From assembly GCF_054482595.1 (NCBI RefSeq), contig NZ_CM137008.1: a stretch of 64,000 nt of DNA; one strand, written 5' to 3'. The position numbers and the translations under genes were made by a program. The notes beneath the pieces are model-generated. The model did no database searches, was not told the origin of the DNA, and worked only from the letters and a program-made list of their open reading frames with translations. Below are positions 748 through 62,166 of this stretch, one piece after another. Positions within the stretch are counted from its first letter, which is position 1, and every line of letters begins with the position of its first letter.

Positions 748-765
748 GTTGAAGCGCGCGCTTAA

Positions 766-1662
<897 letters not shown>

Positions 1663-10268: not shown

Positions 10269-11010
<742 letters not shown>

Positions 11011-11512: not shown

Positions 11513-12307
11513 ATGGATCTGTTGTACCGGGTAAAAACGCTTTGGGCCGCGCTGCGCGGTAATCATTACTCCTGGCCTGCCATCGATATCACCCTCCCCG
11601 GCAATCGCCATTTTCATCTGATTGGCAGTATTCATATGGGTAGCCACGATATGGCTCCCCTGCCCGCCCGTTTGCTCAAAAAGCTCAAAAACGCCGATGC
11701 GCTGATCGTCGAGGCGGATGTTTCCACCAGCGATACGCCTTTTGCTAATTTGCCTGCCTGCGAGGCGCTGGAAGAGCGTATTAGCGAGGAGCAATTACAA
11801 AATCTGCAGCACATTAGCCAGGTGATGGGCATTTCTCCGTCACTCTTTTCTACCCAACCGCTGTGGCAAATCGCGATGGTTCTTCAGGCGACGCAGGCAC
11901 AAAAACTGGGGCTGCGGGCAGAATACGGTATCGATTACCAGTTATTGCAGGCGGCGAAGCAACAACATAAACCCGTGATTGAACTGGAAGGGGCTGAAAA
12001 CCAGATTGCCATGTTGCTCCAGCTCCCTGACAAAGGACTGGCGCTGCTGGACGATACGCTGACCCACTGGCATACCAACGCACGGTTGCTGCAACAAATG
12101 ATGAGCTGGTGGCTGAATGCGCCGCCGCAAAATAATGAAATAACGCTGCCCAATACGTTCAGTCAGTCGCTGTACGATGTGCTGATGCATCAGCGAAATC
12201 TCGCCTGGCGGGATAAATTACGCGCCATGCCGCCGGGGCGATATGTGGTCGCGGTCGGTGCACTACACCTGTATGGAGAAGGGAATTTGCCGCAAATGTT
12301 GCGCTAA
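11513..12307 (+). CDS. ybaP: TraB/GumN-family protein YbaP
   Basis: 264-aa ORF with preceding SD (aaagggaggtcgt ATG); conserved position between ybaQ and ybaK. Confidence 0.88.
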   Translation: MDLLYRVKTLWAALRGNHYSWPAIDITLPGNRHFHLIGSIHMGSHDMAPLPARLLKKLKNADALIVEADVSTSDTPFANLPACEALEERISEEQLQNLQHISQVMGISPSLFSTQPLWQIAMVLQATQAQKLGLRAEYGIDYQLLQAAKQQHKPVIELEGAENQIAMLLQLPDKGLALLDDTLTHWHTNARLLQQMMSWWLNAPPQNNEITLPNTFSQSLYDVLMHQRNLAWRDKLRAMPPGRYVVAVGALHLYGEGNLPQMLR

Positions 12308-12389
12308 AAAAATGGCCAATATCGCTATTGGCCCGTCAAAGAGGAATTTCATTTTTTTATTATTATGCCGTCACTTTAAGCGACGGTGT
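12305..12389 (-). ncRNA. chiX: ChiX (MicM/SroB) Hfq-dependent small RNA
   Basis: Minus strand reads ACACCGTCGCTTAAAGTGACGGCATAATAATAAAAAAATGAAATTCCTCTTTGACGGGCCAATAGCGATATTGGCCATTTTTTT, matching recalled ChiX with its terminator hairpin and U-tract. Confidence 0.85.
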
Positions 12390-18054: not shown

Positions 18055-18150
18055 ATGAAAAATATGTAGGCATGATAAGACGCGCCAGCGTCGCATCGGG
18101 CATCGAGAGCCAAATGCCAGATGCGGCGTGAACGCCTTATCTGGCCTACG
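18055..18150. repeat. REP pair (single BIME) downstream of ybaL
   Basis: gtaggcatgataagacgcgccagcgtcgcatcgggca and gccagatgcggcgtgaacgccttatctggcctac in inverted orientation. Confidence 0.85.
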
Positions 18151-24524: not shown

Positions 24525-24553
24525 AGATGGGGACAAGGGAGAATAATTTCAAG
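24525..24553 (-). promoter_or_regulatory. Sigma-32 heat-shock promoter of htpG
   Basis: Minus strand CTTGAAA (-35) ... CCCCATCT (-10), the sigma-32 consensus, upstream of htpG ATG. Confidence 0.8.
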
Positions 24554-25569: not shown

Positions 25570-27501
25570 TCAAATGGGGCGGATACTTTCTTCATCCAGC
25601 TCCGCATCGAAGAACCGACGCAGGGTCTGAATATTATTATCCGCAATAATGGACTCGCGCGCCTGCGCAAGTTTTTCTTCGTATATCGCCTGACGCCACT
25701 CCAGCGGCGTACGCACCGCGGGATTATCATCTTCAACGATAGTCAGTTCAACCGTTGAACCTTTTAACGTGCTCAACGCTTCAGCCAGTTTTTGCTGTGC
25801 ACCGCGGTTGTTCAAATGCCGCTGAGAGGAGCGCAAATGCAGACATACTGCGTTGTCGCTCTCCTCTTTCCAGGCATTTAAGGCCACCTGTTCGACCAGT
25901 TTTGGTAGCGAAAGTTGACTCACCTGTGCCGCCCACGCGTCGCGCTCAATGGCTTCTGCCGCCAGCTTCGCCGCCAGTTCCGGCGTTTTTTCATGTTCCA
26001 GCGCTTTTTTCAGCGCCTTCGGCGTGGCGACCACTTCTTTTTGCTGCATCACTGGAGTGGTAGCCTTCCAGCGATACGCTTCTTTTTTGGCTGGCGCTTT
26101 TTCCAGCGCCGATGGCACCGGACGCGCCTGAACGCGATCGGTGACCGAAGCCAGTCTTTCCAGCGCAGCGTTATTCACCGGCCGCGCGCGGGTAGCGGCT
26201 GCCGGTTCACTCTTTTTTGCTTTGGTTGCTCCCTGCACGCGCTGCAACTGCTGGCGCGCCGCCAGCACCTGGCTGGTGGTTTCCGGGAGCGGTACAGTCG
26301 GTGCCTGCTGCGGCGCTGATTGCGGTTGCGGCGGCACCTGGGTTGGCGTCATTACTGCCGTTGGCGCGACGGGCGCAAAGGACTGGCGTGGCACTTCTGG
26401 CTCAGGCAGAGGCATACGTGGATGGAACGCCAGCGCGCGCAGCAGCGTCATCTCAACGCCCATGCGGCGGTCCGGCGCATACGGTAATTCTTTGCGACCA
26501 ATCAACAGCGTCTGATAGTAAAGCTGAATATCCGTCGGCGGTATGGTGCGCGCCAGTTCACGCATCCGCAGCTCAATGGCGGCCATGTCGTTGCCAAGTG
26601 CAGCAGGCGAAAGTTGTACCATCGCAATACGATGCAACAGGCCGAGCATTTCCACCAGCAACGCTTCCCACTCGATACCACGGGCAGCGGCTTCATTAAT
26701 CAGCGCCATTACGCGCTCGCCGTTGGCCTCGACCATCGCTTCAACCAGCGACAGCGCCTGATCGTCGTCAAGCGTACCCAGCATCGCACTGACTGCCTGG
26801 GTTGAAACCTGGCCGTCACCGCTGGCAATCGCCTGGTCGGTCAGACTTAAGGCATCTCGCAGGCTGCCTTCAGCGGCGCGCGCCAGCAATTGCAACGCCC
26901 GCGGCTCGTGAGCGATATGTTCTTCGTTGAGGATGTGCTCAAGTTGATGGCGAATTTGCTCGACATCCAGCGCCTTGAGATGAAATTGCAAACAGCGCGA
27001 CAAAATCGTCACCGGCAATTTCTGTGGATCGGTCGTCGCCAGCAGAAACTTAACGTGCTCCGGCGGCTCTTCAAGGGTTTTTAACAGTGCGTTAAAGCTG
27101 TGGCGCGACAGCATATGCACTTCGTCGATCAGATAAACTTTGAAACGACCACGCGCCGGAGCGTACTGGACGTTATCCAGCAGGTCGCGGGTATCTTCAA
27201 CTTTGGTGCGCGAGGCGGCGTCGATTTCAATCAGATCGACAAAGCGCCCCTGCTCGATTTCACGACAGTTATCGCACACGCCGCACGGCGTCGCGGTAAT
27301 GCCGGTTTCGCAGTTTAGCCCCTTCGCCAGCAGTCGGGCGATAGAGGTTTTTCCGACGCCACGGGTACCGGAAAAAAGATAAGCATGATGAATACGCCCT
27401 AACGACAAGCCGTTCGCCAGTGCGGTCAGCACATGTTCCTGGCCGACGACGTCAGCAAAGGTTTGTGGGCGCCATTTTCGGGCTAAGACCTGATAACTCA
27501 T
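25570..27501 (-). CDS. dnaX: DNA polymerase III subunits tau/gamma
   Basis: 643-aa ORF; AAA+ Walker A GTRGVGKTS, Walker B DEVH, zinc module CGVCDNC. Confidence 0.97.
   Translation of the reverse strand: MSYQVLARKWRPQTFADVVGQEHVLTALANGLSLGRIHHAYLFSGTRGVGKTSIARLLAKGLNCETGITATPCGVCDNCREIEQGRFVDLIEIDAASRTKVEDTRDLLDNVQYAPARGRFKVYLIDEVHMLSRHSFNALLKTLEEPPEHVKFLLATTDPQKLPVTILSRCLQFHLKALDVEQIRHQLEHILNEEHIAHEPRALQLLARAAEGSLRDALSLTDQAIASGDGQVSTQAVSAMLGTLDDDQALSLVEAMVEANGERVMALINEAAARGIEWEALLVEMLGLLHRIAMVQLSPAALGNDMAAIELRMRELARTIPPTDIQLYYQTLLIGRKELPYAPDRRMGVEMTLLRALAFHPRMPLPEPEVPRQSFAPVAPTAVMTPTQVPPQPQSAPQQAPTVPLPETTSQVLAARQQLQRVQGATKAKKSEPAAATRARPVNNAALERLASVTDRVQARPVPSALEKAPAKKEAYRWKATTPVMQQKEVVATPKALKKALEHEKTPELAAKLAAEAIERDAWAAQVSQLSLPKLVEQVALNAWKEESDNAVCLHLRSSQRHLNNRGAQQKLAEALSTLKGSTVELTIVEDDNPAVRTPLEWRQAIYEEKLAQARESIIADNNIQTLRRFFDAELDEESIRPI
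26205..26218 (-). other. dnaX: dnaX programmed -1 frameshift site that yields gamma
   Basis: Minus strand reads GCA AAA AAG AGU GAA: heptamer A_AAA_AAG in frame (..ATKAKKSEP..), with UGA in the -1 frame directly after. Confidence 0.9.
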
Positions 27502-43030: not shown

Positions 43031-43144
43031 GGGTGGGGGCCCTGCCAGCTACATCCCGGCACACGCGTCATCTGCCTTGGCTGCTTCCTTCCGGACCTGA
43101 CCTGGTAAACAGAGTAGCGTTGCGGGAGAACCAACAGAGCCCCC
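43031..43144 (-). ncRNA. ffs: 4.5S RNA (signal recognition particle RNA)
   Basis: Minus strand reads GGGGGCUCUGUUGGUUCUCCCGCAACGCUACUCUGUUUACCAGGUCAGGUCCGGAAGGAAGCAGCCAAGGCAGAUGACGCGUGUGCCGGGAUGUAGCUGGCAGGGCCCCCACCC; ends +/-1 nt. Confidence 0.95.
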
Positions 43145-58349: not shown

Positions 58350-60704
58350 CTATTTTGCAGTCACAACCTGCATGCCAGACGGTTCATTTTGCAGCGCCAG
58401 AGTCAGAACTTCCTCAATGCGCTTCACAGGATGAATGTCCAGATCGGCAATTACGTTGTCAGGAATCTCTTCCAGATCGCGTTTATTTTCGAACGGAATT
58501 AACACTGTTTTAATCCCGCCGCGATGCGCTGCCAGTAGTTTTTCTTTCAAACCACCGATCGGCAGTACCTGACCACGCAGAGTGATCTCACCGGTCATTG
58601 CCACATCGGCACGAACCGGGTTACCGGTCAGGCAAGAAACCAGCGCGGTGCACATAGCAATACCAGCACTCGGACCATCTTTCGGCGTCGCACCTTCCGG
58701 TACGTGGACGTGGATGTCACGTTTTTCGTAAAAATCAGGGTTGATCCCCAGTTTTTCCGCACGCGCACGAACCACCGTTAACGCCGCCTGAATAGACTCC
58801 TGCATCACTTCGCCGAGCGAACCGGTATAGGTCAGTTTGCCTTTACCCGGAACACATGCGGTTTCAATGGTCAGCAAGTCACCGCCCACTTCCGTCCACG
58901 CCAGACCGGTTACCTGACCGACACGGTTTTCGTTATCAGCGCGACCATAGTCGAAACGCTGAACACCGAGGTAGTCATGCAGGTTATCGCCGTTAATTTC
59001 GATATGTTTTAATGACTTATCGAGCAGTAACTGCTTAACCGCTTTGCGGCACAGTTTGGAGATTTCACGCTCCAGACCACGCACGCCCGCCTCACGGGTG
59101 TAGTAACGAATAATGCCGATAATGGCGCTATCGTCGACGGTCAGCTCACCTTTTTTCAGTGCATTACGTTCAATCTGCTTCGGCAGCAGGTGACGTTTGG
59201 CGATGTTCAGTTTTTCATCTTCGGTATAACCGGAGAGGCGAATCACTTCCATACGATCCAGCAGCGGTGCCGGAATGTTCATGGAGTTCGACGTCGCGAC
59301 AAACATCACGTCGCTGAGATCGTAATCCACTTCCAGGTAGTGGTCGCTGAACGCTACGTTCTGCTCTGGATCCAGCACTTCAAGCAGTGCAGAGGCCGGA
59401 TCGCCTCGCATGTCAGAAGACATTTTGTCGATCTCATCGAGCAGGAACAGCGGGTTTTTCACGCCCACTTTCGCCATTTTCTGGATCAGTTTACCCGGCA
59501 TAGAACCGATGTAAGTACGGCGGTGACCACGGATTTCCGCTTCATCACGCACGCCGCCCAGCGCCATACGGACATATTTACGCCCGGTGGCTTTGGCAAT
59601 GGACTGACCAAGAGAGGTTTTACCTACCCCCGGCGGCCCTACCAGGCAGAGGATCGGTCCCTTGATTTTGTTGACACGGCTTTGAACCGCAAGGTACTCA
59701 AGGATGCGATCTTTCACGCGCTCCAGACCATAATGGTCGGTATCAAGGATTTCCTGCGCCTGACGCAGGTCTTTTTTGACCTTGCTACGCGCATTCCACG
59801 GCACCTGTACCATCCAGTCGATATAACCACGCACTACGGTCGCTTCTGCCGACATCGGAGACATCATTTTCAGCTTCTGCAACTCTGCTTCCGCTTTCTC
59901 TTTTGCCTCTTTCGGCATCTTCGCCGCGTCGATTTTGCGCTTCAGGGCTTCGTTTTCGTCCGGCGCGTCGTCCATTTCACCGAGTTCTTTCTGAATAGCT
60001 TTCATTTGCTCGTTCAGATAGTACTCACGCTGGGATTTCTCCATCTGCTTTTTAACGCGGTTGCGAATGCGTTTCTCAACCTGCAGCAGATCGATTTCCG
60101 ATTCCATCATTGCCATCAGATATTCCAGACGTTCGTTAACGTCGGACATCTCCAGAACGGACTGTTTATCAGCCAGTTTCAGCGGCATATGTGCAGCAAT
60201 GGTATCCGCCAGACGCGCCGGATCGTCGATGCTATTCAGCGACGTCAGCACTTCTGGTGGGATTTTTTTGTTCAGCTTGATGTAGCCTTCGAACTGGCTG
60301 ATTGCAGTACGCACCAGCACTTCCTGTTCTCGCTCATCAATAGTCGGCGACTCCAGATACTCCGCCTTCGCAGAAAAGTGTTCGCCATTGTCAGAGAGCG
60401 CAGAAATACGCGCGCGCTGTAACCCCTCGACCAGCACTTTGACGGTGCCGTCAGGCAGTTTCAGCATCTGCAATATAGAGGCCACGGTCCCGACGGTGAA
60501 AAGATCGTTTACACCCGGCTCATCCGTTGAAGCTTCTTTCTGCGCGACCAGCATAATTTTTTTATCATGGTCCATCGCCGCTTCCAGACAACGGATAGAT
60601 TTTTCCCGCCCGACAAATAAGGGGATGACCATGTGCGGATAAACCACCACATCGCGCAGCGGCAATACGGGGATTTCAATGCGTTCAGAACGCTCAGGAT
60701 TCAT
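58350..60704 (-). CDS. lon: ATP-dependent Lon protease
   Basis: Start trimmed to [23 protein letters not shown] (784 aa); Walker [10 protein letters not shown]; catalytic Ser in PKDGPSAG. Confidence 0.97.
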
Positions 60705-60787
60705 AGAGCTCTCTCTTAGTTTAATTTCCGCCAGGTAATCAGATGACACGACTGTGCTTCACGCCATCTATTAACATGTACGTCAGT

Positions 60788-60816
60788 ATATGGGGATGTT
60801 TCCCCCACATTCAACG
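60788..60816 (-). promoter_or_regulatory. Sigma-32 heat-shock promoter of lon
   Basis: Minus strand GCGTTGAATGTGGGGGAAACATCCCCATATACTGACG: TTGAA (-35) and CCCCATAT (-10). Confidence 0.8.
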
Positions 60817-60864
60817 CCGAGAATAGAGGAAAAATTAAAGGGGAGATAAAATCCCCCCTTTTTG
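60808..60864 (+). ncRNA. Candidate small RNA in the clpX-lon spacer (possibly SraA), ending at a plus-strand terminator
   Basis: Plus-strand hairpin aaaggggagataaaatcccccc followed by tttttgg at 60836-60864; position matches my recollection of sraA in the clpX-lon intergenic region, antisense to the lon promoter. Confidence 0.35.
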
Positions 60865-60891
60865 GTTAACTAATTGTATGGGAATGGTTAA

Positions 60892-62166
60892 TTATTCACC
60901 AGATGCCTGTTGCGCTTCCGGCTTGCCATAAATCAGCAACGGTTTGCTTTGACCATCAATTACCGACTCGTCGATAACCACTTTTTCGACATCTTCCATG
61001 GACGGCAGATCGTACATGGTATCGAGCAGTGCGGCTTCTACGATGGAACGCAGGCCACGGGCACCGGTTTTACGCGCCATCGCTTTCTTAGCGATAGCAT
61101 CCAGCGCCTCGTCACGGAATTCCAGATCCACGCCTTCCAGATTAAACAGCGCCTGATACTGCTTGGTCAGGGCGTTTTTCGGCTCTTTGAGGATCTGAAT
61201 CAGAGCTTCTTCGCTCAGTTCATTCAACGTTGCGACAACCGGCAGACGACCAATAAACTCAGGGATAAGACCAAACTTGATCAGATCTTCCGGTTCAACC
61301 TGCGCCAGCAGCTCGCCTTCGCTTGCTTTGTCGGACTTCGCTTTTACCGTCGCGCCAAAACCAATGCCGGAGCCGGTTTCTACACGATGGGAAATCACTT
61401 TATCCAGACCGGCAAACGCACCGCCACAAATAAACAGGATCTTAGAGGTATCAACCTGCAAGAATTCCTGCTGCGGATGTTTACGCCCACCTTGCGGTGG
61501 AACAGCAGCTACCGTACCTTCGATCAGTTTCAACAGTGCCTGCTGTACGCCTTCACCGGAAACGTCACGGGTAATAGACGGGTTGTCTGACTTACGAGAA
61601 ATCTTGTCGATTTCATCGATGTAGACAATCCCGCGCTGCGCTTTCTGTACGTCGTAATCGCACTTCTGCAACAGCTTCTGAATGATGTTTTCAACGTCTT
61701 CGCCCACATAACCGGCTTCGGTCAGCGTGGTTGCGTCGGCCATGGTGAACGGGACGTCCAGCAGGCGCGCCAGCGTTTCAGCCAGCAGCGTTTTACCGGA
61801 ACCAGTCGGACCGATCAGCAGAATGTTACTTTTGCCCAACTCGACACCATTGCTGGTATCGCCGTTGCGCAGACGTTTGTAATGGTTGTATACCGCGACC
61901 GCCAGCACTTTTTTCGCCTGTTCCTGGCCGATAACGTAATCGTCCAGGTGGTTACGAATTTCATGCGGCGTCGGTAGCGCACTGCGTTCACGATGCGGTG
62001 CAACTTCTTTAATCTCTTCGCGAATGATGTCGTTACATAAATCAACACATTCGTCGCAGATATACACGGATGGACCGGCAATCAGCTTGCGCACTTCATG
62101 CTGGCTTTTGCCGCAAAAAGAGCAATACAGCAATTTGCCTGAGCCATCTTTGCGTTTATCTGTCAT
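60892..62166 (-). CDS. clpX: ATP-dependent Clp protease ATP-binding subunit ClpX
   Basis: 424-aa ORF; N-terminal zinc-binding domain (CSFCGK...CDEC), Walker A GPTGSGKT. Confidence 0.97.

What the first reader, a model, noticed from the sequence alone, without database searches (positions are those of the whole stretch)
60705..60891. clpX-lon spacer holds a plus-strand terminator antisense to the lon heat-shock promoter
The spacer contains the lon sigma-32 promoter on the minus strand (60788-60816) and, on the plus strand, a GC hairpin plus T-run (aaaggggagataaaatcccccctttttgg, 60836-60864). The same hairpin could terminate clpX on the minus strand. From memory an sRNA (SraA) has been mapped to this spacer on the strand opposite clpX and lon; if so, its transcription would run across the lon promoter. 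The identity is a recollection, not something the sequence proves.
Basis: partly seen in the sequence, partly recalled or inferred. Interest (0 to 1): 0.35.

Follow-up and report, generated by a model that had tools for sequence, protein, structure and literature searches.

The report
Known SraA locus in clpX-lon spacer
This is the well-known E. coli spacer between clpX and lon, where the clpX terminator and the lon heat-shock promoter sit on one strand and the already catalogued small RNA gene sraA sits on the other; the finding is correct but ordinary.

Summary
The window is E. coli, and the 187-nt spacer (60705-60891) is identical to K-12 458701-458887.

On the minus strand:
- The clpX intrinsic terminator is the hairpin 60861..60837. 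Two published datasets map the RNA 3' end at 60834.
- The lon heat-shock promoter has its -35 at 60814..60809 and its -10 at 60795..60785. Published start sites are 60777 and 60780.

On the plus strand, Rfam's sraA model (RF02029) matches 60776-60871 at 106.7 bits against a threshold of 56.

Comparison of 21 Enterobacterales adds one point. Every invariant block in the "sraA family" is a lon promoter box, the lon leader or the clpX terminator. The parts only SraA would need are poorly conserved: the 3' arm of its first hairpin, the linker and the plus-strand T-tail.

I found no convincing plus-strand promoter and no mapped SraA 3' end. RefSeq does not annotate sraA, and no phenotype or Hfq dependence has been reported.

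SraA is most likely a low-level by-product transcript that stops at the back of a two-way terminator. Interest is low.

The parts
58350..60704 (-). lon coding sequence (Lon protease). The true ATG start is at 60704; the mechanical ORF list extends to 60749 from an upstream GTG.
   Evidence: ORF list; sequence read (MNPERSE... start); annotated as lon under the match in E. coli genomes and in K-12.
60705..60736 (-). Nearly invariant last ~32 nt of the lon 5' leader (CTGGCGGA..TAAACTAAGAGAGAGCTCT before the ATG), which includes the ribosome-binding region.
   Evidence: 21-species alignment: mean column identity 0.98-0.99 for the two blocks scored (60705-60721 and 60727-60735). Also seen in Photorhabdus, Providencia and Rosenbergiella.
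60777..60780 (-). lon transcription start sites.
   Evidence: Cappable-seq main TSS at U00096.2 458039 = window 60777, relative read score 189. SMRT-Cappable-seq lon and lon-hupB transcripts start at NC_000913.3 458812 = window 60780.
60785..60795 (-). lon -10 region: CCCCATAT (60795..60788, sigma-32 type) overlapping TATACT (60790..60785, sigma-70 type).
   Evidence: Invariant in 21 of 21 Enterobacterales, 11 of 11 columns. Found by the promoter scan and the motif search.
60792..60806 (.). Inverted repeat GGGGATGTTTCCCCC inside the lon promoter spacer. It corresponds to hairpin 1 of the Rfam sraA model and lies where IS186-type insertions occur.
   Evidence: Rfam structure line. No compensatory change across species. 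Stable only in Escherichia (-8.7 kcal/mol). [quoted passage not shown] An example genome is broken at 60805 with an IS421-family transposase alongside.
60807..60815 (-). lon -35 region (GTTGAATGT; core TTGAAT at 60814..60809).
   Evidence: 8 of 9 columns invariant in 21 species. Scan and motif search. The same motif lies upstream of lon in 71 of 80 gammaproteobacterial loci.
60830..60839 (-). T-tract of the clpX terminator (TTTAATTTTT on the minus strand), with the mapped clpX mRNA 3' end at 60834.
   Evidence: Term-seq 3' end at K-12 458758 (+) in two conditions. SMRT-Cappable-seq clpP-clpX transcripts end at 458758/9. At least 6 of 9 U in all 21 species.
60837..60861 (.). Terminator stem-loop. 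On the minus strand it has 11 pairs including one G.U (AAAGGGGGGAT-TTT-ATCTCCCCTTT). On the plus strand the same stem carries an A.C mismatch.
   Evidence: Terminator scan on both strands. Fold of the clpX 3' UTR. 5 of 11 pairs show compensatory changes and 91.8% of cells are paired. Core stem -11.1 kcal/mol (minus) against -8.3 (plus) in E. coli.
60859..60865 (+). Plus-strand T-run (TTTTTGG) that would end SraA at about 60863-60865.
   Evidence: Sequence and plus-strand terminator call. Poorly conserved: 5 or fewer of 9 U in 8 of 21 species. No experimental 3' end was found.
60776..60871 (+). Match to the Rfam sRNA family sraA (RF02029). This is the annotated SraA region; its true 5' end is unresolved.
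   Evidence: cmscan: 106.7 bits, full model, E = 9e-18. Homologous hits in 20 other Enterobacterales loci at the same position.
60771..60800 (+). Weak candidate SraA promoter (TTAACA-18-GATGTT, 8 of 12 matches), predicting a start near 60807.
   Evidence: Lenient scan: 3 candidates against 2.3 +/- 1.6 expected, so not significant. The -35 is conserved only in the 8 closest taxa. The stricter scan found no plus-strand promoter.
60892..62166 (-). clpX coding sequence (stop codon at 60894..60892).
   Evidence: ORF list; annotation in E. coli genomes and K-12.

Best explanation
The spacer is a compact junction of two minus-strand signals.

1. clpP-clpX transcripts end at an intrinsic terminator, hairpin 60861..60837, with the 3' end at 60834. 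This is shown.
2. About 20 nt further on lies the lon heat-shock promoter, with -35 at 60814..60809, -10 at 60795..60785 and start at 60777-60780. The position and start site are shown. The sigma-32 assignment rests on the consensus match and on established knowledge.

In E. coli the hairpin is nearly symmetric, with an A-run on one side and a T-run on the other. It can therefore also stop RNA polymerase travelling on the plus strand. This is inferred from sequence.

The catalogued sRNA SraA is the plus-strand RNA that ends there. It most likely comes from weak, non-conserved initiation in or next to the lon promoter and leader region. It is probably a low-abundance by-product with no trans-acting role. 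The practical effect of plus-strand termination would be to keep such antisense transcription out of clpX. These last steps are inferred.

The cross-species conservation that supports the Rfam family comes from the lon promoter boxes and the clpX terminator, not from SraA-specific features.
For: - Identity: Rfam sraA at 106.7 bits. EcoCyc sraA lies on the strand opposite clpX and lon.
- clpX termination: Term-seq 3' end at window 60834, and full-length clpPX reads ending there.
- lon promoter: start sites at 60777 and 60780. The motif is specific, with 3 hits against 0.2 expected, and it lies upstream of lon in 71 of 80 loci.
- Two-way terminator in E. coli: both strands score in the scan. Plus-strand tail TTTTTGGTT has 7 of 9 U.
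- Conservation belongs to the minus strand. Mean column identity is 1.00 for the -10, 0.99 for the -35 and 0.98-0.99 for the lon leader. It is 0.67 for the loop and 3' arm of hairpin 1, 0.62 for the linker and 0.71 for the plus-strand tail.
- Hairpin 1 has no compensatory change, and its 5' arm is the invariant -10 box.
- The minus-strand T-tract has at least 6 of 9 U in all 21 species, while the plus-strand tail has 5 or fewer in 8 of 21. The stem is as stable or more stable in the clpX orientation in 20 of 21.
- Where the Rfam model fails, the promoter and a terminator both persist but are separable, more than 200 nt apart in Budvicia.
- No plus-strand promoter stands out above chance.
- sraA is absent from RefSeq MG1655, from W3110 and from 60 sampled PGAP genomes.
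- No phenotype on overexpression (PMC4606813) or deletion (PMC2698986; PMC3384567). No Hfq dependence in Klebsiella (PMC3136514).
Against: - A 2025 RNA-seq study counts SraA among sRNAs detected in all conditions (PMC12266141). A Yersinia ruckeri study reports regulated reads for an Rfam-named SraA (PMC12112432). So some RNA from this stretch is seen repeatedly. I could not check the strandedness or read boundaries of either study.
- In hairpin 1, 85% of cells still form standard pairs, many through G.U, which pairs only on the plus-strand RNA. Slid controls reach 35-77%.
- The distance from the lon -35 to the terminator stays nearly constant across 21 species although the linker sequence varies. 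A pure by-product model does not need this. An UP-element-like role for the T-tract could explain it, but that is my speculation.
- The missing SraA 3' end in Term-seq is weak evidence, because only about 1000 of the strongest 3' ends per condition are listed.
Confidence: 0.6

Rival explanations
1. SraA is a functional cis-acting regulator of lon. Either its transcription runs face-to-face across the lon promoter and start site and blocks or collides with polymerase there, or its promoter overlaps the lon promoter so that the two compete for polymerase. In both cases basal Lon synthesis would be tuned and the effect overridden at heat shock.
For: The Rfam limits (60776-60871) cover the whole lon core promoter. 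The best candidate SraA promoter (60771-60800) physically overlaps the lon -10 and start site. The GGGG-N6-CCCCC hairpin is strong only in the Escherichia, Citrobacter and Enterobacter group, where the plus-strand T-tail and the TTAACA box are also kept. The three features therefore co-occur in one clade.
Against: The SraA 5' end is unmapped. The candidate promoter is no better than chance. Its features are absent from half of the taxa that still score as 'sraA'. A Salmonella sraA deletion gave no confirmed phenotype. SraA was reported as not differentially expressed in any tested condition, which is unlike a regulator.
Confidence: 0.15
2. There is no discrete SraA RNA in normal cells. The gene is a legacy annotation from a promoter-plus-terminator prediction, and reads assigned to it are background antisense or mis-assigned signal.
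For: sraA is not annotated in current RefSeq MG1655, although other sRNAs such as sgrS are. It is also missing from W3110 and from 60 sampled genomes. No SraA-strand 3' end appears in Term-seq lists from three conditions. No plus-strand promoter stands out above chance. The family's conservation is fully explained by other elements.
Against: From memory, the original report (Argaman et al. 2001) included a Northern band of about 120 nt. SraA is still listed in EcoCyc (G0-8861). It is reported as detected in all conditions in PMC12266141. The E. coli plus-strand hairpin and TTTTT tail form a credible terminator.
Confidence: 0.15
3. SraA is a trans-acting base-pairing sRNA with targets that have not yet been found.
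For: It has the general layout of enterobacterial sRNAs: about 60-120 nt, a 5' hairpin, a linker and an intrinsic terminator. It is listed with such sRNAs in reviews and screens.
Against: The only single-stranded stretch that could act as a seed, the linker 60816-60829, is the least conserved part, with identity 0.62. Transcript level is unchanged in a Klebsiella hfq mutant, -1.02-fold. The U-tail is short (5 U then GG) and decays across species. No phenotype appeared in overexpression or deletion screens.
Confidence: 0.08

Closest known systems
SraA (psrA3, t15), E. coli small RNA; Rfam RF02029; EcoCyc G0-8861
   Same: Same locus, same strand and same sequence. The full-length Rfam match scores 106.7 bits. 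The gene lies between clpX and lon and opposite to both.
   Different: Nothing differs; this is that gene. What remains open even for the known entry is its real 5' end, its promoter, its abundance and any function. RefSeq does not annotate it.
Bidirectional intrinsic terminators (symmetric hairpin flanked by an A-tract and a T-tract; Ju et al. 2019, seen here only as a citation in Adams et al. 2021)
   Same: A GC-rich stem has AAA(A) on one side and TTT(TT) on the other, so each strand reads as hairpin plus U-tract.
   Different: Such terminators usually sit between convergent genes. Here the flanking genes run in the same direction, and the opposing transcript is only a small antisense RNA. 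Termination is documented only in the clpX direction. In E. coli the stem is weaker on the plus strand, with an A.C mismatch in place of a G.U pair.
Sigma-32 (RpoH) heat-shock promoters, for example the htpG promoter in the same window at 24527-24552 (-)
   Same: TTGAA-N14-CCCCAT architecture. Conserved upstream of lon in 71 of 80 gammaproteobacterial loci. The mapped start site is 8-11 nt downstream of the -10 box.
   Different: A sigma-70-like TTGAAT-18-TATACT reading overlaps it. In E. coli its spacer carries the GGGG-N6-CCCCC inverted repeat, where IS186-type elements insert.
Promoter-associated antisense or divergent transcripts (pervasive transcription around bacterial promoters; my own knowledge, not checked here)
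   Same: A short, low-abundance RNA arises within a promoter region, with no conserved promoter and no phenotype.
   Different: SraA would have a defined intrinsic-terminator 3' end, whereas many such transcripts are ended by Rho. It also carries a database name and a family model.

Membership tests
Rfam RF02029 sraA | Covariance-model score at or above the curated gathering score (56 bits) over the full model | tested here: met
   106.7 bits, model positions 1-95 of 95, plus strand, E = 9e-18 (repeated).
Rfam RF02029 sraA | Location in the clpX-lon spacer, on the strand opposite both genes | tested here: met
   clpX and lon flank the hit on the minus strand. The same arrangement holds in 20 other Enterobacterales loci. 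EcoCyc sraA is on the opposite strand.
Rfam RF02029 sraA | Both model hairpins maintained as RNA structure across members | tested here: inconclusive
   The terminator hairpin has 5 of 11 pairs with compensatory changes. Hairpin 1 has none of 9, and its 5' arm is the invariant lon -10 box. 85% of its cells pair, mostly through G.U, against 35-77% in slid registers.
Rfam RF02029 sraA | A discrete transcript from this strand | not testable with these tools
   Only literature statements were available (detected in all conditions, PMC12266141). No SraA-strand 3' end appears in the Term-seq lists. The stored Cappable-seq table holds only the other strand.
Intrinsic (Rho-independent) terminator, clpX direction | GC-rich stem-loop followed by a U-tract, with the RNA 3' end inside the tract | tested here: met
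   11-pair stem followed by TTTAATTTTT. 3' end at 60834 by Term-seq and SMRT-Cappable-seq. The stem covaries. The tract has at least 6 of 9 U in 21 of 21 species.
Intrinsic terminator, SraA (plus) direction | GC-rich stem-loop followed by a U-tract | tested here: met
   GGGGAGATAAAATCCCC followed by CCTTTTTGGT scores in the scan. Core stem -8.3 kcal/mol, tail 7 of 9 U in E. coli.
Intrinsic terminator, SraA (plus) direction | Mapped RNA 3' end in the U-tract, and conservation of the tract | tested here: not met
   No plus-strand 3' end is listed, which is weak evidence. The tail has 5 or fewer of 9 U in 8 of 21 species, for example TTGTCATAC in Yersinia.
Sigma-32 heat-shock promoter | -35 CTTGAA-like and -10 CCCCATNT boxes at the right spacing, with a start site just downstream | tested here: met
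   TTGAAT-N13-CCCCATAT. Start sites at 60777 and 60780. Both boxes are invariant in 21 species.
Sigma-32 heat-shock promoter | Dependence on RpoH and induction by heat | not testable with these tools
   Rests on established knowledge that lon is a heat-shock gene. Nothing here measures it.
Hfq-dependent trans-acting sRNA | Conserved single-stranded seed, Hfq-dependent stability and a long U-tail | tested here: not met
   The linker is the least conserved segment, identity 0.62. Level is unchanged in a Klebsiella hfq mutant (PMC3136514). The tail is 5 U then GG and decays across species.
Cis-antisense RNA or transcriptional interference | An active antisense promoter and a measurable effect on the sense gene | tested here: inconclusive
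   Candidate promoters are no more frequent than chance, and the best one is conserved only in close relatives. An effect on lon cannot be tested here.

The most novel reading that the evidence does not exclude
In the Escherichia, Citrobacter and Enterobacter clade only, an SraA promoter that physically overlaps the lon promoter may have been recruited as a brake on basal lon transcription. The clade-specific features are the TTAACA box, the strong GGGG-N6-CCCCC hairpin and a good plus-strand T-tail. Polymerase bound or transcribing on the plus strand would exclude polymerase from the lon promoter until sigma-32 levels rise.
Probability: 0.1. Interest if true: 0.45.

Novelty: already known. 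Interest (0 to 1): 0.12.

Why it matters
It matters little as a discovery. The clpX terminator, the lon heat-shock promoter and the sRNA gene sraA are all catalogued.

The useful by-product is a caution for annotation. A strong Rfam score and conservation from Escherichia to Yersinia are not independent evidence for an RNA gene here, because the model's conserved columns are the promoter boxes and terminator of the genes on the other strand. That may be why sraA has had no function assigned since its first description and is missing from current RefSeq annotation.

If the minority reading were true and SraA tunes lon, it would add a local control layer to a major quality-control protease.

Tried and rejected
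Data sources that gave nothing on the SraA strand:
- The stored Cappable-seq table holds only the K-12 plus strand, because the file was cut. It gave the lon start but nothing for SraA.
- Supplements of Colgan 2016 contained no SraA entry. No supplements are held for the 2025 NAR paper, the Rend-seq annotation paper or Conway 2014.
- Thomason 2015, Ju 2019, Hershberg 2003 and SaiSree 2001 are not held. The original Northern size (about 120 nt), the 57-nt annotation and the IS186 target consensus therefore rest on my memory or on citations in other papers.

An inference I dropped:
- I first read the Adams label 'antisense to sraA' at K-12 458831 as showing that the annotated gene reaches that far. 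Their class includes a 50-bp margin, so I dropped that inference.

Readings I rejected:
- Coding: a 27-aa plus-strand ORF (60743-60826), with an in-frame ATG at 60776 giving 16 aa, exists. It lies in the variable part of the spacer, a 1-nt indel shifts the frame in Citrobacter, and the internal ATG becomes AAG, AGG or CGT in other genera.
- Hairpin 1 as a conserved RNA structure: there is no compensatory change.
- A strong sigma-70 promoter for SraA: none was found at standard stringency, and lenient candidates are at chance level.

Full report
WHAT IS THERE

The window is Escherichia coli. The region 60600-61000 is 100% identical to many complete genomes and is present in 5,424 of 5,426. The stretch 60650-60950 is identical to K-12 MG1655, with K-12 position = 519592 - window position. 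On the minus strand the gene order is clpP, clpX (60892-62166), lon (58350-60704, ATG at 60704) and hupB. The finding's limits, 60705-60891, are exactly the 187-nt clpX-lon spacer.

The hairpin and T-run are real, one base off the stated coordinates. The terminator scan calls the hairpin on both strands:
- Minus strand: AAAGGGGGGATTTTATCTCCCCTTT followed by AATTTTTCCT, 11 pairs.
- Plus strand: GGGGAGATAAAATCCCC followed by CCTTTTTGGT.
- Six terminator-like calls fall in 800 nt, against 0.6 expected from shuffles.

The lon promoter is TTGAAT (60814..60809), a 13-nt spacer, then CCCCATAT (60795..60788). The motif TTGAA-N13-17-CCCCAT occurs three times in the 64-kb window against 0.20 expected. 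A sigma-70-like reading, TTGAAT-18-TATACT, overlaps it.

THE IDENTITY IS CONFIRMED

Rfam's sraA model (RF02029) matches 60776-60871 on the plus strand over its full length. The score is 106.7 bits against a gathering score of 56, E = 9e-18. It is the only hit at E <= 1 in the 9 kb searched around the spacer.

Adams et al. 2021 (PMC7815308) use an EcoCyc gene sraA (G0-8861). They class a clpX-strand 3' end as antisense to it, so the database gene lies opposite clpX and lon. Their 'antisense' class carries a 50-bp margin. It therefore shows only that the annotated 5' end is at or beyond K-12 458781, which is window 60811 or lower.

EXPERIMENTAL ANCHORS FROM PUBLISHED DATA

- Term-seq places a 3' end at K-12 458758 (+), which is window 60834 (-), inside CCCCTTTAAT|TTTT, in two conditions.
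- SMRT-Cappable-seq shows full-length clpP-clpX transcripts from four start sites all ending at 458758/9.
- Cappable-seq gives the dominant lon start at U00096.2 458039, which is window 60777 (-).
- SMRT-Cappable-seq gives 458812, which is window 60780.

The minus-strand reading, a clpX terminator followed by the lon promoter, is therefore directly documented.

For the plus strand I found no such anchor. No SraA-strand 3' end appears in the Term-seq lists. Those lists hold only about 1000 strong ends per condition, so this is weak negative evidence. The stored Cappable-seq table covers only the other strand.

COMPARATIVE TEST

I fetched 80 lon loci from Enterobacterales, Vibrionales and Alteromonadales. 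The Rfam sraA model hits 20 of the 40 loci scanned. All 20 are Enterobacterales, from Escherichia to Yersinia, Pectobacterium, Erwinia and Pantoea. It misses Photorhabdus, Providencia, Budvicia, Arsenophonus, Rosenbergiella and everything outside the order.

I aligned the 21 spacers, the window plus those 20, and scored each segment by mean column identity.

Well conserved, all minus-strand signals:
- lon -10: 1.00 (11 of 11 columns invariant)
- lon -35: 0.99
- the two lon leader blocks scored: 0.98-0.99
- terminator stem: 0.83-0.88
- clpX T-tract: 0.82

Poorly conserved, the parts only SraA would need:
- loop and 3' arm of Rfam hairpin 1: 0.67
- linker: 0.62
- plus-strand tail: 0.71

Pair counts agree. 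The terminator has compensatory changes at 5 of 11 pairs and 91.8% of cells paired. Hairpin 1 has no compensatory change, because its 5' arm is the invariant GGGG of the lon -10 box. Its remaining 85% pairing is mostly G.U, and slid registers reach up to 77%. Hairpin 1 is stable only in Escherichia (-8.7 kcal/mol) and folds differently elsewhere.

Strand asymmetry points the same way:
- The clpX-direction T-tract has at least 6 of 9 U in all 21 species.
- The SraA-direction tail has 5 or fewer of 9 U in 8 species, for example TTGTCATAC in Yersinia, which still scores 80 bits as 'sraA'.
- The stem is as stable or more stable in the clpX orientation in 20 of 21 species. In E. coli it is -11.1 against -8.3 kcal/mol, because a G.U pair becomes an A.C mismatch on the plus strand.

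Where the Rfam model fails, a lon sigma-32-type promoter and a clpX terminator are both still present. The hairpin sequences differ, and in Budvicia the two elements are more than 200 nt apart. The promoter motif lies upstream of lon in 71 of 80 loci. The 'family' is therefore two separable minus-strand elements that happen to lie at a fixed short distance in part of the Enterobacterales.

IS THERE AN SraA PROMOTER?

The standard scan finds none on the plus strand. A lenient scan gives three candidates against 2.3 +/- 1.6 expected. The best is TTAACA (60771-60776), an 18-nt spacer, then GATGTT (60795-60800), predicting a start near 60807. Its -35 box is kept only in the eight closest taxa.

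The geometry matters:
- An RNA starting near 60807 is divergent from lon, whose start is at 60777-60780, and crosses neither the lon -10 box nor the lon start site.
- An RNA starting at the Rfam limit (60776), or about 120 nt upstream of the terminator (the Northern size I recall from Argaman et al. 2001), would cross the whole promoter and overlap the lon 5' end.

The data I could reach do not settle this.

WHAT THE LITERATURE SAYS ABOUT FUNCTION

- SraA is listed as an sRNA between clpX and lon (PMC3384567).
- It is reported as detected in all tested conditions without differential expression (PMC12266141).
- Overexpression has no effect on biofilm, motility or fimbriae (PMC4606813).
- Its Salmonella deletion gave no confirmed fitness or virulence phenotype (PMC2698986; PMC3384567).
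- Its level is unchanged in a Klebsiella hfq mutant (PMC3136514).
- A Y. ruckeri study reports regulated reads for an Rfam-named SraA (PMC12112432).
- Current RefSeq MG1655 does not annotate it although it annotates sgrS. W3110 and 60 sampled PGAP genomes do not annotate it either.

MOST LIKELY MECHANISM

clpPX transcripts stop at the hairpin, and lon is transcribed from the promoter 20 nt further on. Both are shown.

In E. coli the hairpin has an A-run upstream and a T-run downstream, so it is a credible two-way terminator. This is inferred from sequence.

SraA is the plus-strand RNA that ends at its back side. It most likely arises from weak, poorly conserved initiation in the lon promoter or leader region and has no trans-acting role. 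This is also inferred, and I put it at about 0.6.

The rivals are:
- a real cis effect on lon by interference or promoter competition (0.15)
- no discrete RNA at all, so a legacy annotation (0.15)
- a trans-acting sRNA (0.08)

Points the favoured view does not explain well:
- The G.U-tolerant pairing of hairpin 1.
- The near-constant distance between the lon -35 box and the terminator despite a variable linker. The terminator's T-tract lies at about -53 to -62 of the lon promoter and might serve as an UP-like element, but this is speculation.

VERDICT

The locus is already known, so interest is low. The one thing worth keeping is that the Rfam hit and the family's conservation are not independent evidence for a functional RNA, since they mirror the promoter and terminator of the opposite strand.

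Noticed in passing
window 60792-60806: The GGGGATGTTTCCCCC repeat in the lon promoter lies where IS186-type elements are reported to insert (lon promoter hot spot, PMC11251521). In one E. coli record, plasmid pEcFELIX533.1, the match stops at 60805 and an IS4-like IS421-family transposase lies directly beside it. 55 of 5,424 genomes lack an intact spacer.
   Followed up: partly
window 24527-24552 (-): A second match to the sigma-32-type motif (TTGAAATTATTCTCCCTTGTCCCCAT). It maps to K-12 495,040-495,065, between recR and htpG, so it is most likely the htpG heat-shock promoter.
   Followed up: partly
window 749-773 (+): A third match to the sigma-32-type motif (TTGAAGCGCGCGCTTAAGCCCCCAT). If the window is collinear with K-12, it lies inside ybbO on that gene's coding strand, upstream of ybbN/cnoX. 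It could be an internal heat-shock promoter or chance.
   Followed up: partly
window 60705-60736 (-): The last ~32 nt of the lon 5' leader are almost invariant across Enterobacterales (CTGGCGGA..TAAACTAAGAGAGAGCTCT-ATG). They include the 8-nt palindrome AGAGCTCT directly before the start codon, which is more conservation than a ribosome-binding site alone needs.
   Followed up: partly
window 60761 (-), K-12 458831 (+): Adams et al. 2021 list a bicyclomycin-sensitive (Rho-dependent) site here, ratio 1.78, 16-19 nt into the lon 5' leader. It may reflect Rho acting on clpX read-through or on the lon leader.
   Followed up: no
window 60813 and 60868 (-), K-12 458779 and 458724 (+): SMRT-Cappable-seq lists extra minor start sites for lon-hupB transcripts, one inside the lon -35 box and one upstream of the clpX terminator hairpin. 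Cappable-seq also lists weak starts at window 60812, 60760, 60733 and 60711.
   Followed up: no
window 10324-11007 and 18069-18146: Seven tandem Rfam naRNA4 hits (repeat-type elements) spaced about 101 nt apart, plus one isolated copy. Three of the tandem copies also score on the opposite strand.
   Followed up: no
window 26173-26237 (-), 12306-12389 (-), 43040-43136 (-): Other Rfam hits in the window: the DnaX ribosomal frameshift element, sroB sRNA and the small SRP (4.5S) RNA, all expected for this part of the E. coli chromosome.
   Followed up: no
window 60743-60826 (+): A 27-codon plus-strand ORF with an AGG 7 nt upstream of its ATG overlaps the lon promoter. It is not conserved outside Escherichia, because a frame-shifting indel occurs in Citrobacter, so it is probably not coding.
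   Followed up: yes
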